A stretch of 64,000 bases of DNA. It comes from Octopus sinensis (taxonomy: Eukaryota). A program made the position numbers. Location: contig NW_021833118.1 in NCBI RefSeq assembly GCF_006345805.1, positions 19,155-83,154 of the forward strand. The letters run 5' to 3'. Shown here piece by piece: positions 28,465 through 37,900 of the stretch. Numbering within the stretch: the first letter of the stretch is position 1; every line of letters begins with the position of its first letter.

Positions 28465-31400
28465 TTGAAATATCTTAATACACTATTAAAATCGTTATGA
28501 AGCTATTATTCATATTCAATTTTTAAACCCATTAAATATGTTTCTATGTCAATTAAAACAATTGAATCACCTCAGTATTTTCTAATTTTGTAATTATAAT
28601 CTTAGCTATCCAGGTAACAGGACATCACTAGTTTAATCTAACCTTCTCCTTGCTGGGTATCCTATTCATCCTCTCTCACATTTCTTTTACACGTCTTTTC
28701 GCCGTTTTACATCTAGATTCGTTCACACCTCAACTATGTATATATTTGTATTCAAAAAGCAATTAGCACATTCTGATGAAGCAAAAGGAAAAAAAGTATT
28801 GCCTATGTATTCTTTGTTCAGCCTAAATACTTCTTTTTCTACCTAGACTGTAGTTTAGTATGCCAGCGATTCGGTTTGGGGAGCATTGACATAACTTTTT
28901 TTTATTTTTACAGTTATCACTATCTTCCTGCTGTCTAAAACAATAAGACTGCAATAACAATGGCAATATACTATGGTTTACACCGCCATGTAGCCTTAAG
29001 GGGAAATCCATTATTGTCCTTACTTCCGAAAATAGTTTTTTACGCGGTATGTTTTAAACTGTTTAATCAGCGAAAAGTAAGGATTTGGAGAATGGTTTCA
29101 AATATTGGCACAACGCCTGCAATTTAAGGGGTAGGGCTAAATCTGTTACGTTTATACCAGTACTCAACCCGTACTTATTTTATCGACTCTGAAAGGATGA
29201 ATGGCACGGCAAAGTTAATCTCGGCGGAATTTGAATTTAGAACATAAAGGCAGACGAAAAGCCGCTTAGCATTTTGTCCGGCATACTAACGATTCTGGAA
29301 GGTTTTAAGATATCACGTGACTGATATGGGCTTCACCCTCGCAGCGAAATAAGTGTCCGAAACCATCAAGTGAAGCCATAAAACAAGAAACCAACTATGA
29401 ACAGAAATCAACAGTTCGAAGTAACAAGAGAGATAACTAAAACTGGAAAAATGGAGAGTTATGTCACGTAAGTAATTTAAATTTAGGCTGAACCGAATAT
29501 CTGATGTACGAACTTACATATCGGAACAGGCGGCAGATTTAAACCAAAACATGATCACTGTATTTTAAAATCCAGATAAGGCTGAATACCGAAGACTTTT
29601 AATAGCAACCAATAATATAAACAGCCTTCAAGAAATTTTTGGACATGAGATTATTAGTGACATTGCATATATTTGTTATCATAAAAGGTGTATTTGAATA
29701 TATCAATAGAGAAGTTGATACTAGAAATTTATTTCAACTGTTTTGTGAAATAAGAACACACACACACACACATATACATCTTATACAAACGCGCTTTTAT
29801 TAAAGCATTGTATTAGTTATAAGCTTGAGGATAATGGTTCGAATCATACTTCTACCCTTTCAGTATCACTCATTAACTCTTTTAGTATATACGCTTCACT
29901 TCTGCTGTCTACAACTATTAAATACCAATGCTCTGGACAAAACAGCGTTTATAATTGTTAGATTAACATAAAGAAACCCACAATTTACTTCAATGGTTAT
30001 ACGATCTCAACGAGTGGATATTTACGCGTCAACTCGAGTTGATAAAATTAGAAGTCAAAAATCTACCTCCGTTCTAAAGCAAAAACTGGACATGATAGAT
30101 AACGTAATCCTAGAAAAATTATTTACATACCAGACGGGATGGTCGTGGCTATTCAATAGGTTCGAACCTAGAGTTAAACAATAATAACGTCAATGAAGAC
30201 AGCTTTCACTAATTATGAATAAATACCATTATTGGATGGAAGTACTCCGTCGGTTACGACGATGAGGGTTCCGGTTGATCCGAATCAACGGAACAGCCTG
30301 CTCGTGAAATTAACGTGTAAGTGGCTGAGCACTCCACAGACACGTGCACCTTAACGTAGTTCTCGGGGATATTCAGCGTGACACAGAGAGTGACAAGGCC
30401 GGCCCCTTGAAATACAGGTACAACAGAAACAGGAAGTAAGAGTGAGAGAAAGTTGTGGTGAAAGAGTACAGCAGGGATCACCACCATCCCCTACCGGAGC
30501 CTCGTGGAGCTTTTTTAGGTGTTTTCGCTCAATAAACACTAAGAACGCCCGGTCTGGGAATCGAAACCGCGATCCTATAACCGCGAGTCCGCTGCCCTAA
30601 CCACTGGGCCATTGCGCCTCCACAAATACCATTATTACTACACTATCAGACACACACGCTCACACACACACACACATTAATAATAGTGTAGTAATAATGC
30701 AAAATTAATAATGCCGTCGTAATGGTGTTGTATCACTAATACACTATCTGTACTATATACCAGCAAGTACATCCATAACCCACGACACACATCAGTTACC
30801 AAACCCCACTCAACACACACAGACACACACACAAATACACACACACACACACACACATTAATAATAGTGTCGTAATAATGTAAAATTAATAATGCCGTCG
30901 TTATGGTGTTCTATCACACCATATACTGTTACTAATACACTATCTGTACTATATACCACCAAGTACATACATGACCCACGACACACATCAGTTACCAAAC
31001 GCCACTCGAACCTTACACTATGCACTTACAGACCCCACAAAATTACCTTAGCAAATCTTAGATTCGCCCCACCCCACTCTCCCCCACTTCTATCTATGAT
31101 CGTATTGATTTCAGGTGATTTTCAAAGTTAATTCTTTTGCTTCCTTATAACAAGGAACACCAGAACAACAACAACAAGACCAGGATACAGACGACAGCGA
31201 TTAGAACTCCAAGTGCCACTCGTACCATGTAGTCGCCTGCAGCTGTAAATGAAAAGAAATACAATATTGAGTTTATTAGGTAGATACACAAATAGCAAAT
31301 AATTTAAAAAAAAGACTAGCTGGCCCTGTGCCGTCAAAAATGACGCCTAATTGTAGTATTTTATATATAAATAAGGTACATAATAATCAGAGATACATAT

Positions 31401-31933
31401 ATTCACACACTTTCCTTGTTCACGCAGACGCTTACACAAATATATTCACACAGAGTTGAAACGGTGTTTGATTTTTCTTTTCAGCGTTGAATGTTTACCA
31501 TCGCACTTTCATTGCATTCACACACACACACACATACACAAACATACACACACACTTCCATGACTTCCTTTTATATACACACACACACATACTCACGCAA
31601 AGATGAAACGCTGTTTGATTTTTCTTCACCGTAGGACTTCTATCATCCCACTACCAAGTTTGCCCTCACCCCTTCTTTCCTTAATCATCTATCACCCCTT
31701 CCCTTCTTATTCATATGTTGCGGCGGAGAAATACACAAGAGTATTATTATAGTAGAAGATAAGATACACAACACTCTCTTTACCACTTCCTCTCTTACAT
31801 TGCTGTTATTTTTTCTCACTCCCTCTCAGTCATGGCTATTACTCTCCCTATTTCTCCTTCACTGAATTACTATTTTCTCTCCTCTCCCTTCACTTATATT
31901 ATTCTTTCTCCCACTCCCTTCTGAGGGATTTTG

Positions 31934-34900: not shown

Positions 34901-37900
34901 TACTTAATTTATCGACCCCGAAAGGATGAAAGGCAAAGTCGACCTCGGCGGAATTTGAACTCGGAACGTAACGACAGACGAATTTCGCCCGGCGTGCTAA
35001 CGTTTCTATCAGCTCGCCGCCTTAACATGAACAATATATAAATTTATGTGTAGGTGTAAGTGTATGTGTGTCTGTATATGCGCCTTAGCATTTGTCTCCT
35101 ATCAGACAACCGGAGTTGGTTTGTTTATGTTCCTTTAACTCAGTGGTTCAACAAAGCCGACAGATAGAATTAGTACCAGGATTAAAAATGAGTGCTAGTA
35201 TTGATTTGTTTGACTAAATCCTTCAAAGCGGTGATTCAGCATGGCTGTATTCCAATGAATGAAACATGAAAAAGATAAAAGACAACGATATAAAAAAAAG
35301 ACAAAAAAAGAAAGAAAAGAAAGAAAGAAAGAAAAGAAACGAGATTGCTGAGAAACGATAAAATAAGTTATTGAAAACTATTCCTTACCGTGTTCTGAAG
35401 TATTTTTATCACCAACACCTTTTGTTTCTTCATTATAAACTCCTTTCTCGAAACTTCGACATGCAGGGAAATTGACAGGGATTTTTGGTAAGTGGGCAAA
35501 AGATTCATTTAGAACCATTGCCATTCCGTCCTTACTGTGTAATTCAATATGGCAGTGCATGATCCATACTCCAGGATTATCGGCCACTATTCTCACTACA
35601 ACGTATCCACCTGTAGGGACCATAATTGTATCCTTTTGAGGGGGGGTTCGTAAATTCATTCCGGGGATGTTGTCTCCTTCCCAGTTGCTATTTGACCAAA
35701 CCGCATCATTACAATAGTTCATTTTCGGATCACCTCTGCAATCAATATCTACAGTATCATTTATTATTTCTCCCGTTGTTTCATTGTATTTTGGAAACCC
35801 CATTTTAACTACATAAAATGAATGTCCATGCATGTGTATAGGGTGGGAGAACCCTTTACCTTTTCCAAGATTTGTCATTACAACTTGAATTGTATCACGA
35901 TATTTCAGGTTTATAGAATAAGTACACCGACACACTTTATCAACACCGCAGTTGGCATTATCACACAGACTATCTATTTCTTTTGGTTGTGTTAAAGGGT
36001 TTACCGTGGGTTCCACGAACACACGACCATTTACTGATGCTGGTGTGTATCCTGGCTCGCCAGGAAAAGCAAAATTTAAAAAATATTCCTCAAACCTCCC
36101 AGACTTGTATGGAGGTACAACAACAGGGTAATCAAGTTCCAAGTCATTAAACTGTAAACACCGTTTATTACTTTTCTCGGGATAATAAAGAAAGGGGCAG
36201 TTGAGTAAAGTGCAGTCCTTTTGTTGAACGCAGTCAGAAACCGTGGAGTTGGGTTCTTCGTCCAGTGCACCCTTATAACGAAGAATTGCTTCAAATGTAT
36301 TATTTTTTTCAATTTCCATTGTTTTTCCACGAATCCAATAATTTCCGACAGAGTTATTTGCCTTCAATATAAAGTCAAATCTCTCACCCGGACTGAGGAT
36401 GAAATAATCAACAGCTGTTGGTTTTAGGTCAAAACCATCAGAGGCAACGACTACCATCTGGTGACCATCAACAGACACTTCAAACGGGTAAAGGTACCCT
36501 GCAGCGATCACTCTAAAACGATACTCTTTACCTTGTTCTACTTCAAAGACAGTCAGTGGAGCCCCATTATGTTTCCCTGTTTCATCATAATAACGGCCTC
36601 GACCATTCACAATACCAGAATGGAAATTAAAAAGACTAAAATGTGCCCCATCTAGAGATTTGGAACTGCCAATGTTTTTACGGTTCCAATAGAATCCGAA
36701 TTTCATTTTTAAGTAACTCACATCGGAGTCCCAGTTATGGTTGTAGTCTTTTATTAACATCACATGTTCTTCCATTTTACGTTTTGTCTTTTCGTGTATT
36801 ATAAAACCACCAAATAGTCCCATCGTACGTTGTGTCCCAAGATGAGAATGGTACCAATAAGTTCCAGTTTGTGTAACATTAAATTCATATCTGAACGACT
36901 GACCTGGTTGAACTGGACACTGTGAAACCCAAGGTACGCCATCCATATGAGGTGTTCCTTTTTGATGAATGCCGTGCCAATGTATTGTTGTAGATTCTGA
37001 AAATAATCGGTTTTCTACTTCAATGATGACTCTTTGTCCTTTATAAACTTCTATTGTTGGTCCAGGAACTGTGCCATTAACTGCAATCACCTTAACTGAC
37101 TCAGAGAAACCATCCATCGTAATGACTTTATCAGTTGGTATCGGTTGAGCATTTGTAAAATTAGTGACGTCATATTTGTAGAGTTTTCCATTATGGGGTA
37201 GTACCAAGATCTTATTGTATAGCATAGTTAATTTATAGGAAATTACCAGCTTAAACTCACACACGTCGTCTTCCATACGACAACCATGAGAATAAACTAA
37301 TGGTGATAAGAGCCCTAGGAGGAATACAATTATGTTGAAGTGAATCATAGTTGAACCAGTGTGTGCTGATATCTGAAATAACAAAATGAGAAACAATGAA
37401 ATCAAAGACGATGTGACAATTAAATCACGAAATATTTGTAAATTTTCAAGACAAAGGAATACAGACATATCAAAGAGAAGAAATGAAAATAAAACTCTGT
37501 GTGACAGGCAGACGACAGGGAGATCAAAATTGTTTTGTTAGTAGGACATTTCAGCTGGAACAAATTTTTATCAGAAATTGTTAGAAACTTAACAATTTCT
37601 GGTTACAGTCGTTTTTTCCTCTGTCCTTTATAGCTTACGAGATGATCTTTGTCAACAGTTGGTGACATAGTATCATAAGTTAGAAGTGGGGAATATTTTA
37701 AGCGTGTCTGTCAAACCAGAAGTGCTGCTTCAAGTACTTTATCGCCTAAACGTGATCAGTATGGTCCAGAGGATACTAGTTTGTACATAATAGTGTTCTT
37801 ATTCATTCGTTTTATAGTACTTGTCATGCTTACGTTACACAATATTCTATTGGTTGGCAATATACAAGTTAGTTAAAGATACATCGGAGTGGTTGTGTGG

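What the first reader, a model, noticed from the sequence alone, without database searches (positions are those of the whole stretch)
31145..37348. Gene B appears to borrow the anchor exon of a destroyed third paralog
Seen: on the minus strand the order is gene B exon, ~790 bp with no match to gene A's intron, a gene-A-like laccase fragment (34603-33625), then the intron and anchor exon mirroring gene A. Inference: the true mirror of gene A was the fragment's gene, and deletion fused an upstream tandem paralog (B) onto its intron and anchor exon. The layout resembles variable large exons with a shared constant exon, as in UGT1 or protocadherin clusters.
Basis: partly seen in the sequence, partly recalled or inferred. 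Interest (0 to 1): 0.7.

Follow-up and report, generated by a model that had tools for sequence, protein, structure and literature searches.

The report
Chimeric octopus laccase gene in palindrome
Two mirror-image octopus laccase genes sit in a large inverted duplication, and one is a patchwork: a foreign catalytic body placed inside the mirror copy, whose leftover exon piece now lies in the intron. This is a tidy but ordinary case of gene rearrangement.

Summary
On the minus strand lie gene B's large exon (37348-35389), 785 bp with no match to gene A's intron (35388-34604), an A-like laccase fragment F (34603-33621, 95.2% to A 4747-5727), then a copy of A's intron from 7155 onward and a small transmembrane anchor exon (31242-31145).

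F is A-type: there are 118 B-unique sites against 17 F-unique and 20 A-unique, and AU tests reject F grouping with B. F joins the intron through a 1,428-bp microhomology deletion. B's donor and phase match A's, and no other homology-supported terminal exon exists. The closest B relative found (an O. vulgaris model) carries a different anchor.

The "upstream tandem third paralog" is not supported. B's 5' flank and first ~88 codons mirror A's own. The window is a palindrome with arms of at least 19 kb and stretches of 100% identity between arms.

The simplest reading is that the right arm is A's mirror carrying a 2.45-kb B-type cassette at A coordinate ~4712-4747, plus the deletion. B therefore borrows both head and tail, and F is the displaced exon remainder.

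The right anchor exon has a 1-bp deletion that removes the conserved RKQKN tail. The UGT1/protocadherin analogy fails. There is no RNA evidence, and no other octopus genome could be searched.

The parts
1..18929 (.). Left arm of the inverted duplication (may continue beyond the window edge)
   Evidence: Self-BLASTN: collinear inverted matches to 46479-21554 at 88-100%. Inner end at 18929.
18930..21553 (.). Unique 2,624-nt spacer at the palindrome centre, with AT microsatellite and a reverse-transcriptase fragment
   Evidence: arms 18706-18929 / 21554-21777, 98% complementary, 2,624 nt between them. RVT_1 match, E 5.5e-05 and below the gathering score, for ORF 20644-21294.
21554..46479 (.). Right arm of the inverted duplication. 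It is longer than the left because of AT-rich low-complexity expansions at about 40000-43400 and the B cassette.
4448..6443 (+). Gene A large exon (CDS from ATG to the phase-1 donor G|GTAAGG). Encodes a laccase-like multicopper oxidase of 665 codons plus 1 nt.
   Evidence: Pfam Cu-oxidase_3 / Cu-oxidase / Cu-oxidase_2. Copper motifs intact. 84.5% aa identity to the O. bimaculoides LOC106881493 protein.
6444..9529 (+). Gene A intron (3,086 nt). Its first 711 nt (6444-7154) have no counterpart in the right arm.
9530..9645 (+). Gene A anchor exon. Reads (V)ADDYTVRVALGVLIAVVCILAILVVVLVFLVIRKQKN*: a transmembrane helix plus a basic tail.
   Evidence: Matches the C-terminus of O. bimaculoides P0002 (31 of 36 identical).
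37085..37348 (-). Head of gene B (ATG, signal peptide, first ~88 codons). A-type and nearly identical to A 4448-4711.
   Evidence: 3 mismatches in A 4433-4711, none in 4535-4711. B has the same pattern as A at the 7 diagnostic sites in aa 29-74. A-B 40/40 against B-P0004 33/40 for aa 37-76; dS 0.036.
34604..37084 (-). B-type cassette (~2.45 kb): exon codons ~89-653 with donor (37084-35389) plus 785 nt of unrelated intron (35388-34604)
   Evidence: B is B-type at 59 of 62 diagnostic sites from aa 89 on, A-type at none, other at 3; 95-100% aa identity to O. vulgaris P0004 across aa 77-555. A-B dS up to 0.92; the spacer is unrelated to A's intron and is partly dispersed repeats (34800-35030, 35107-35279).
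35389..37348 (-). Gene B large exon (CDS, 653 codons plus 1 nt). Donor G|GTAAGG, with the intron starting at 35388.
   Evidence: Pfam three MCO domains. Copper motifs intact. 93.9% aa identity to O. vulgaris P0004.
33621..34603 (-). Fragment F: A-type copy of exon codons 101-427. It has one frameshift (between 33976 and 33970) and no stop within the two pieces. It has no start codon and no donor.
33621..33629 (-). Deletion junction. A 5727 is joined to A 7155 (1,428 bp missing: codons 428-665, the donor and 711 nt of intron), with microhomology TTTTG.
   Evidence: three-line comparison. (the two matches overlap by 9 bp).
31243..33620 (-). Copy of A's intron from A coordinate 7155 to the acceptor. 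With the cassette spacer and F it forms B's predicted 4,146-nt intron (35388-31243).
   Evidence: 0 substitutions over A 7297-8896..
31145..31242 (-). Right-arm anchor exon. A-type, but a 1-bp deletion near 31178/31177 shifts the frame. It reads (A)AGDYMVRVALGVLIAVVCILVLLLLFWCSLL*. The old tail LVVVVLVFLVIRKQKN survives in another frame down to 31131.
   Evidence: 191/201 identical to the left copy; by my count from the printed alignment, 8 of the 10 differences lie in the 98-nt exon.; maximum 19-residue hydropathy 3.43.

Best explanation
The window holds a large inverted duplication. Its arms are at least 19 kb and its unique spacer is 2.6 kb. It carries two tail-to-tail genes for membrane-anchored, laccase-like three-domain multicopper oxidases. 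Each gene has one ~2-kb exon, a 3-4 kb phase-1 intron and a ~100-nt transmembrane anchor exon.

The right arm is a mirror copy of gene A's arm with two local differences. (1) A ~2.45-kb cassette from an older B-type laccase lineage sits at A coordinate ~4712-4747. It comprises exon codons ~89-653, the splice donor and 785 nt of foreign intron. (2) A 1,428-bp microhomology deletion removed the mirror exon's codons 428-665, its donor and the first 711 nt of its intron.

Gene B is therefore a chimera. Its promoter region, signal peptide and first ~88 codons come from the A-mirror, and its catalytic body is B-type. Its predicted tail is the A-mirror's intron and anchor exon. Fragment F is the displaced remainder (codons 101-427) of the A-mirror exon and now lies inside B's intron.

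Shown: the segment order, the junctions, the type of each segment, intact copper ligands, and matching donor, phase and acceptor.

Inferred:
- The cassette entered in one event. The likely routes are one-ended homologous repair, or replicative template switching into a B-type paralog followed by end joining.
- B is spliced to the anchor exon at 31242.
- The arms keep exchanging sequence by gene conversion.

The right anchor exon has since lost 1 bp. B's predicted C-terminus is still a hydrophobic helix but lacks the conserved basic RKQKN tail.
For: - Palindrome and collinearity on both sides of the genes. The inner ends and the spacer.
- Three dispersed-repeat copies lie at mirrored positions in both arms: 2249-2359 / 40110-40000, 11507-11608 / 29157-29258 and 18261-18378 / 22131-22251. 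The flanks, including B's 5' flank, were therefore duplicated after those insertions.
- B's head equals A's: 3 mismatches in 279 bp (4433-4711), then regular mismatches from 4712; dS 0.036 for aa 1-88.
- Type painting used 69 sites where O. bimaculoides A-type P0002 differs from B-type P0004 and P0001main, which agree. B matches A's pattern at the 7 sites in aa 29-74. From aa 89 on, B is B-type at 59 of 62 sites, A-type at 0 and other at 3. Over the 43 sites it covers, F is A-type at 25, B-type at 16 and other at 2, and it largely follows A's own pattern. These tallies are my manual counts from the printed strings.
- F versus A, B and outgroups: F is sister to A (95/93) in the first half and lies within the A-type clade (93/91) in the second half. 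F with the B clade is rejected at p-AU 0.0024 and 0.0002. Three-way sites are 118 B-unique, 17 F-unique, 20 A-unique and 8 with all three different.
- A-F dN/dS is 1.30 and 0.70 for the two pieces, which suggests relaxed constraint.
- Junctions: the F/intron junction has TTTTG microhomology, and F's 5' junction has no homology upstream.
- B's A-type to B-type switch (4712) lies 35 bp from F's start (4747). That is expected if a single break was repaired from a B-type template.
- Splice logic: identical donors G|GTAAGG, phase 1 in both genes, and preserved acceptors.
- Only two anchor exons exist in the window.
- Both anchors share DY, VRV and FLVI. The four other Octopus proteins fetched show DPTVKV, NPTVMV or DPTVIV and FIVV or FFVV instead.
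- Ongoing exchange between arms: 0 substitutions in 1,600 bp (7297-8896) and about 9 in ~4,600 bp (9883-14464), next to a ~1-kb patch with 43 substitutions that holds the anchor exon.
Against: - There is no transcript evidence, so splicing of B to the anchor exon is predicted only.
- Synonymous divergence between A and B is low (0.088) for aa 101-196, although B is B-type there at the protein level. A cassette that is old along its whole length would be expected to show higher dS there. Either that part has since been partly homogenised or the cassette boundary is less clean than stated.
- The donor B-type gene is not in the window. Its existence is inferred from the O. vulgaris model P0004, which is B-type from head to anchor.
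- In O. bimaculoides the A-type and B-like genes have consecutive locus numbers and lie on a record of the same length (57,421,550 bp). This fits an old neighbouring A/B pair at least as well as an imported cassette.
- In the second half of F, A groups with O. sinensis P0003 to the exclusion of F (96/94; F as exclusive sister of A is rejected at p=0.015). Either F is not a very recent copy, or gene conversion among paralogs blurs the history.
- P0001-P0005 are automatic gene models. I saw only their sequences and names.
Confidence: 0.5

Rival explanations
1. The right arm once held two complete tandem genes: B upstream with its own intron and anchor, and an A-type mirror gene downstream. One deletion from B's intron to codon 101 of the A-type gene fused them, and a second deletion removed the rest of that exon.
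For: - F is A-type and contiguous with A-type intron and anchor.
- B's exon end, linker and first 785 nt of intron are unrelated to A's.
- The O. vulgaris B-like model has its own distinct anchor.
- O. bimaculoides has at least three paralogs of this clade (P0001, P0002, P0005).
Against: - B's 5' flank and first ~88 codons are the mirror of A's own, including a shared repeat insertion. An independent old paralog would be expected to have an unalignable flank, since A-B dS reaches 0.4-0.9 in the core.
- The left arm has no second laccase gene or relic upstream of A within 4.4 kb. No other laccase sequence exists anywhere in the 64 kb.
- The model needs extra events: loss of the left-arm B copy, or wholesale re-homogenisation of B's flank.
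- It leaves the 35-bp proximity of B's type switch to F's start as coincidence.
Confidence: 0.12
2. An old inverted A/B gene pair, overwritten from both sides. B is ancestral at this position. An arm-to-arm conversion or break-induced copying event started on the centre side. It copied A's downstream region, anchor and intron, overshot into A's exon back to codon 101, and was joined illegitimately into B's intron. B's 5' flank and first 88 codons were homogenised with A separately.
For: - Adjacent A-type and B-like loci in O. bimaculoides suggest an old neighbouring pair.
- Multi-kb tracts of 100% identity show that large arm-to-arm exchange happens here.
- F and the anchor patch have similar divergence from the left arm (4.8% and ~4.4%), as if copied together.
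- A itself carries a B-type patch at about aa 431-561, so exchange runs in both directions.
Against: - It needs two independent large events whose inner ends fall 35 bp apart in A coordinates (4712 and 4747).
- The shared dispersed repeats and >4 kb of collinear 5' flank imply that the whole flank was replaced, not just patched.
Confidence: 0.22
3. Assembly artefact. The two arms would be haplotypes or paralogous loci wrongly joined as a fold-back, so that B + F is an allelic or misjoined structure rather than a neighbour of A.
For: Kilobase stretches of 100% identity between inverted arms are the sort of sequence on which assemblers make fold-back errors. No read-level data are available.
Against: - The arms are separated by a unique, asymmetric 2.6-kb spacer.
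- They differ by many indels, by arm-specific repeats and by 4-12% in several blocks.
- The two odd junctions are non-homologous or microhomologous, not switches inside identical sequence.
- O. bimaculoides also has separate A-type and B-like loci on one chromosome-sized record.
Confidence: 0.05
4. Functional rival: B no longer uses the anchor exon. It could read through to the stop 9 nt after the donor. It could use F as a terminal exon, since F's 5' edge is a cag|TT site in phase 1 and in frame for 246 codons. Or it could be decaying, because the anchor exon is frameshifted.
For: - The 1-bp deletion in the right anchor removes the tail that ends RKQKN in A, P0002 and P0005 and that is basic in all five Octopus proteins.
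- There is an in-frame acceptor-like site at F's edge.
- The O. bimaculoides model LOC106881494 X1 joins a B-like exon to a laccase fragment and ends without an anchor.
Against: - B's 653-codon ORF and all copper motifs are intact, with 93.9% identity to the O. vulgaris model.
- The anchor's acceptor has a stronger pyrimidine tract (0.8 against 0.6).
- The frameshifted exon still encodes a 26-residue hydrophobic stretch.
Confidence: 0.2

Closest known systems
Molluscan membrane-anchored laccase-like multicopper oxidases (e.g. O. bimaculoides LOC106881493 protein, O. vulgaris 'laccase-like')
   Same: Three cupredoxin-type Pfam domains, all four copper-binding motifs, a signal peptide-like N-terminus, an acidic/basic linker and a C-terminal transmembrane helix. 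A is 84.5% and B is 93.9% identical to these models over the large exon.
   Different: B's predicted anchor is a frameshifted copy of A's anchor and lacks the basic tail. B's first ~88 codons are A-type, unlike its O. vulgaris counterpart.
Large genomic palindromes with arm-to-arm gene conversion (as described for primate sex-chromosome ampliconic palindromes; recalled, not checked here)
   Same: Inverted arms of at least 19 kb around a unique spacer. Kilobase tracts of complete identity sit next to diverged islands, and the genes lie inside the arms.
   Different: The arms are structurally unequal in the gene itself (cassette plus deletion). The coding cores belong to two old lineages and are not homogenised.
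Chimeric genes made by ectopic gene conversion or template switching between paralogs (long-tract conversion ended by end joining; FoSTeS/MMBIR-type events; recalled)
   Same: One seamless homologous junction at ~4712, one illegitimate junction (34604/34603) and one microhomology junction (TTTTG). The recipient's sequence is displaced rather than lost.
   Different: The mechanism is inferred from the end product only. The donor locus has not been seen.
Variable first exons spliced to shared constant exons
   Same: A large self-contained 5' exon encodes the functional ectodomain and is spliced to a small downstream exon encoding the membrane part. A second exon-like copy lies between them.
   Different: There is only one usable large exon. 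F has no ATG, no first 100 codons, no upstream promoter-like homology and no donor, and it carries a frameshift. Nothing indicates alternative promoter choice.

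Membership tests
Three-domain laccase-like multicopper oxidase | Cu-oxidase_3, Cu-oxidase and Cu-oxidase_2 domains in order | tested here: met
   A: E 1.3e-46, 5.9e-29 and 5.9e-38. B: E 2.5e-44, 1.2e-29 and 3.3e-38. F has only part of domain 1 and domain 2.
Three-domain laccase-like multicopper oxidase | Copper ligand motifs HxH, HxH, HxxHxH and HCHxxxHxxxxM (motif definitions recalled) | tested here: met
   A: HWH123, HSH167, HPIHMH501, HCHIELHSKEGM597. B: HWH123, HSH167, HPIHMH502, HCHIELHSKDGM598.
Three-domain laccase-like multicopper oxidase | Oxidase activity on phenolic, amine or metal substrates | not testable with these tools
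   This needs expression and an enzyme assay.
Variable-exon / constant-exon cluster (UGT1A or protocadherin type) | Two or more intact alternative 5' exons, each with a start codon and splice donor, upstream of shared exon(s) | tested here: not met
   F begins at codon 101, with no homology upstream. It lost its donor in the 1,428-bp deletion and has a frameshift. Only B is intact.
Variable-exon / constant-exon cluster (UGT1A or protocadherin type) | A separate promoter in front of each variable exon | tested here: not met
   The 785 nt in front of F are B-side intron and dispersed repeats. They have no similarity to the region upstream of A or B. Promoter activity itself cannot be tested here.
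Palindrome with arm-to-arm gene conversion | Long inverted arms around a unique spacer | tested here: met
   arms 1-18929 and 21554-46479, spacer 2,624 nt.
Palindrome with arm-to-arm gene conversion | Evidence of sequence exchange after the duplication (identity tracts in a diverged background; derived states shared by the arms) | tested here: met
   0 substitutions per 1,600 bp next to a 4.4% patch; both anchors share DY, VRV and FLVI, which are absent from 4 of 4 other Octopus proteins. B's aa 37-76 equals A (40/40) but not its O. vulgaris counterpart (33/40). The direction and timing of exchange are inferred.
Processed pseudogene (retrocopy) as the origin of F | An intronless copy bounded by a poly(A) tail and target-site duplications, unlinked to parental intron sequence | tested here: not met
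   F runs directly into a copy of A's intron, so it was copied as DNA.

The most novel reading that the evidence does not exclude
The intronic relic F may not be inert. It could act as the preferred pairing partner of A's mid-exon during arm-to-arm conversion. In that case A and B homogenise only outside F's span, and the substrate-facing middle of the two enzymes stays different while heads, tails and introns are kept alike.

The observation behind this is a double near-coincidence. The A/B-divergent block runs from 4712 to about 5770, which is F's span (4747-5727) plus 35-44 bp on each side. A's B-type patch starts just past F's 3' end.
Probability: 0.12. Interest if true: 0.55.

Novelty: new member of a known kind. 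Interest (0 to 1): 0.3.

Why it matters
This is a clean, fully readable example of how a gene family diversifies inside a young palindrome. One copy kept the promoter, signal peptide, intron and membrane anchor of its mirror partner but acquired the catalytic body of an older lineage, and the displaced exon piece remains as a fossil of the event.

For annotation, it warns that fragment F can be wrongly joined into gene models. An O. bimaculoides model does end in such a fragment. It also warns that B's C-terminus differs from its relatives because of a 1-bp deletion.

It does not reveal a new kind of gene organisation. The proposed variable/constant exon system is not there.

Tried and rejected
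- **Tandem model with a left-arm NAHR chimera.** In this model A's head would come from a lost left-arm B copy. Rejected: the head shared by A and B is A-type when compared with the O. bimaculoides and O. vulgaris proteins.
- **A as a B-type backbone whose middle was copied from F.** Rejected: A's head and linker are also A-type, and A differs from B for 35-44 bp beyond F's ends.
- **Orthology of F with the fragment at the end of O. bimaculoides LOC106881494 X1.** That fragment is B-type: 151/206 identical to its own upstream exon against 128/201 to A, and it groups with that exon (90/91 and 89/91). Its 18-residue tail gave no better match near the F junction than at unrelated places in the window. 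Shared origin is therefore not shown.
- **Another terminal exon for B in 34604-35388.** None has homology. The only phase-1 hydrophobic ORF is a T-rich low-complexity run 41 nt after the donor.
- **Rfam and tRNA scans of 31000-37600.** These were run to name the dispersed repeat in the spacer. They gave 0 matches, so 'SINE-like' would rest only on copy number and recall.
- **Protein database searches with A, B and the F ORF.** Only the same five Octopus proteins appeared. No octopus fragment was found in the 144-461 aa range.
- **Two literature searches.** The listings showed no paper on cephalopod laccase loci, and I read none.
- **Joined spliced models.** The exons were searched and compared separately.

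Full report
**What the window is.** The sequence is AT-rich and full of microsatellites, dispersed repeats and reverse-transcriptase fragments. Its two long ORFs are closest to Octopus laccase-like proteins, so it is cephalopod DNA from a species close to O. vulgaris and O. sinensis. I did not try to identify it further. It contains no N.

**The large-scale structure.** Self-comparison shows one large inverted duplication.
- Left positions 1-18929 pair in reverse with 46479-21554.
- The inner ends (18706-18929 / 21554-21777, 98% complementary) enclose a unique 2,624-nt spacer. The spacer holds AT microsatellite and a reverse-transcriptase fragment.
- Arm identity is very uneven. It is 88-97% in pieces upstream of the genes, 97.8% for 7155-15031, 93.7% for 15278-17477 and 88.6% for 17568-18929.
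- Inside the 97.8% block, 7297-8896 has 0 substitutions in 1,600 bp and 9883-14464 has about 9 in ~4,600 bp. In contrast, 8897-9882 has 43 substitutions.
- Three copies of a short dispersed repeat lie at mirrored positions in both arms.
- This is the pattern of a palindrome whose arms still exchange sequence.

**The two genes.**
- Gene A has a large exon at 4448-6443 (+), an intron at 6444-9529 and a small exon at 9530-9645.
- Gene B has a large exon at 37348-35389 (-), a predicted intron at 35388-31243 and a small exon at 31242-31145.
- Both large exons carry the three multicopper-oxidase Pfam domains and all copper-ligand motifs.
- Both end in the same donor, G|GTAAGG, in phase 1.
- Both small exons follow a pyrimidine-rich tract ending in tttacag and complete the split codon.
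- A's small exon encodes ADDYTVRVALGVLIAVVCILAILVVVLVFLVIRKQKN*. This matches the C-termini of the O. bimaculoides and O. vulgaris models.

**The observation.** It is correct.
- Between B's donor and the anchor exon lie 785 nt unrelated to A's intron start, partly made of dispersed repeats.
- Next comes fragment F (34603-33621), which is 95.2% identical to A 4747-5727.
- Then comes a copy of A's intron from A coordinate 7155 onward.
- F's 3' end is a simple deletion junction. A's exon reads ...AAATTTTG|CTTTTCC and A's intron at 7155 reads ...CAGTTTTG|TTTTCTG. F reads ...AAATTTTG TTTTCTG.
- So 1,428 bp are missing across a TTTTG microhomology. They held codons 428-665, the donor and 711 nt of intron.
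- F's 5' end has no homology upstream.
- F has one frameshift and no stop within its two pieces.

**Which lineage each piece belongs to.**
- Protein trees over F's two halves, with five Octopus proteins and two cuttlefish outgroups, put B with the O. vulgaris model P0004 (99/99 and 87/91). They put F in the A-type clade: sister to A at 95/93 in the first half, and inside the clade at 93/91 in the second half.
- Forcing F into the B clade is rejected (p-AU 0.0024 and 0.0002).
- At the DNA level there are 118 B-unique, 17 F-unique and 20 A-unique sites, plus 8 where all three differ.
- In the second half, A pairs with O. sinensis P0003 rather than with F (96/94). F as the exclusive sister of A is rejected at p=0.015. 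So F is not a brand-new copy, or conversion among paralogs has blurred the record. Mosaic identity profiles among the five Octopus proteins show that such conversion is common.

- B is not a separate upstream gene with its own surroundings. Its 5' flank mirrors A's flank to the window edge, including a shared repeat insertion.
- A and B differ at only 3 positions in 4433-4711, with none in 4535-4711. Regular differences begin at 4712.
- I used 69 amino-acid sites where O. bimaculoides A-type P0002 differs from the two B-type proteins P0004 and P0001, which agree with each other.
  - B follows A's pattern at the 7 sites in aa 29-74.
  - From aa 89 to the end, B is B-type at 59 of 62 sites, A-type at 0 and other at 3.
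- The O. vulgaris counterpart is B-type in the head as well (B-P0004 33/40 against A-B 40/40 for aa 37-76). B's head therefore became A-type in this lineage.
- Synonymous divergence agrees in outline. A-B dS is 0.036 for aa 1-88, against 0.26-0.92 for aa 197-427 and 0.52 for aa 561-640.
- It is less clean for aa 101-196, where dS is 0.088 although the protein is B-type.

**Best reading.** Relative to the left arm, the right arm differs in the gene by two things.
- A ~2.45-kb B-type cassette (37084-34604: exon from codon ~89, donor, 785 nt of foreign intron) sits at A coordinate 4712-4747.
- The 1,428-bp deletion described above.

B's head, F, the intron and the anchor exon are then all parts of one A-mirror gene. 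B is that gene with a foreign catalytic body, and F is the part of the mirror exon the cassette displaced.

One break repaired from a B-type paralog would produce this. It would be seamless on the homologous side and end-joined on the other. The same structure could arise from a template-switching excursion during replication. Either route explains why B's type switch and F's start are 35 bp apart. This mechanism is inferred, and I did not see the donor gene.

**The alternatives.**
- An 'old inverted pair overwritten from both sides' model rates about 0.22. Consecutive A-type and B-like loci on one O. bimaculoides chromosome-sized record speak for an old neighbouring pair.
- Assembly error seems unlikely, given the unique spacer and the non-homologous junctions, but it cannot be excluded without reads.

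**Does B borrow an anchor that is not its own?** Yes, as far as comparison can show.
- The right anchor shares DY, VRV and FLVI with A's anchor. None of the four other Octopus proteins with an anchor has these.
- It lacks the LIGVV and TKNKK states of the O. vulgaris B-like model.
- The borrowed exon is altered. By my count from the alignment printed, 8 of the 10 differences in a 201-nt comparison fall in the 98-nt exon.
- These include a 1-bp deletion near 31178/31177. It changes the end to ...CILVLLLLFWCSLL* and leaves the old tail LVVVVLVFLVIRKQKN in another frame.
- The product would still have a strongly hydrophobic C-terminal segment (maximum 19-residue hydropathy 3.43) but no basic cytoplasmic tail.
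- Whether that still anchors the enzyme, or marks the start of decay, is open.

**The UGT1/protocadherin comparison.** It does not hold. There is one usable large exon. F lacks a start codon, the first 100 codons, any promoter-like homology and a donor.

**Unexplained.** The block where A and B differ (4712 to about 5770) is F's span plus 35-44 bp on each side. A's own B-type patch (about aa 431-561) starts just past F's 3' end. One possibility is that A's mid-exon pairs with F rather than with B during arm-to-arm exchange. I give this low probability and could not test it.

**Limits.**
- There are no transcripts.
- No other octopus genome is available in the tools.
- The comparison proteins are automatic models of which I saw only names and sequences.
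- Two literature searches listed nothing on cephalopod laccase loci, and I read no paper.
- Statements about sex-chromosome palindromes, UGT1A/protocadherin organisation and repair mechanisms are recalled knowledge.

Noticed in passing
31145-31242 (compare 9530-9645): The right-arm anchor exon carries a 1-bp deletion near 31178/31177 that shifts the frame and removes the conserved RKQKN tail. Eight of the 10 differences in a 201-nt left/right comparison fall in the 98-nt exon.
   Followed up: yes
7297-8896 / 33487-31888 and 9883-14464 / 30891-26310: There are kilobase tracts with 0 or almost 0 differences between the inverted arms, next to a ~1-kb patch (8897-9882) with 43 substitutions that contains the anchor exon. 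This suggests very recent arm-to-arm conversion that skipped the anchor patch.
   Followed up: partly
34601-34604: F's 5' edge coincides with a cag|TT acceptor-like site in phase 1. It would continue B's reading frame into F for 246 codons. The pyrimidine tract is only 0.6, and there is no evidence of use.
   Followed up: partly
Protein P0001 (O. bimaculoides LOC106881494 isoform X1), residues ~650-873: This 873-aa model joins a B-like large exon to a downstream laccase fragment (about aa 208-413 of the family) and ends without an anchor. The fragment is B-type and old (151/206 identical to its own exon). A relic after the B-type exon may therefore recur in Octopus, or the model may be an annotation artefact.
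   Followed up: partly
5771-6133 (gene A, about aa 431-561): Gene A carries a B-type patch. A is closer there to B and the O. vulgaris B-like model than to the O. bimaculoides A-type protein (e.g. 38/40 against 29/40 for aa 476-515), and it is B-type at 13 of 14 diagnostic sites. The patch starts about 44 bp past F's 3' end.
   Followed up: partly
Protein P0003 (O. sinensis, 'LOW QUALITY PROTEIN'), aa 317-475: This protein is almost identical to gene A in aa 317-475 (40/40, 40/40, 37/39, 38/40) but different elsewhere, and it has its own anchor. It is either another mosaic paralog or a chimeric model.
   Followed up: no
34800-35030; also 2249-2359, 11507-11608, 18261-18378, 22131-22251, 29157-29258, 40000-40110, 59447-59545, 59759-60077: A short dispersed repeat of about 100-200 bp has at least ten copies in the window at 73-87% identity. 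Three pairs sit at mirrored positions in the arms, and the copy in B's spacer is unpaired. There was no Rfam or tRNA match.
   Followed up: partly
40000-43400: An extremely AT-rich low-complexity block (GC 13-24%) is present only in the right arm upstream of B. It accounts for most of the length difference between the arms.
   Followed up: no
45517-48484, 57481-58443, 62921-64000, 20127-21617: These are fragments of non-LTR retrotransposon ORFs (RVT_1 and zf-RVT Pfam matches, some below the gathering score). One lies in the palindrome's central spacer.
   Followed up: partly
12413-13086 / 27690-28478: Long CT/TC-rich microsatellite arrays that read as (SL)n ORFs are mirrored in both arms. They are not genes.
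   Followed up: no
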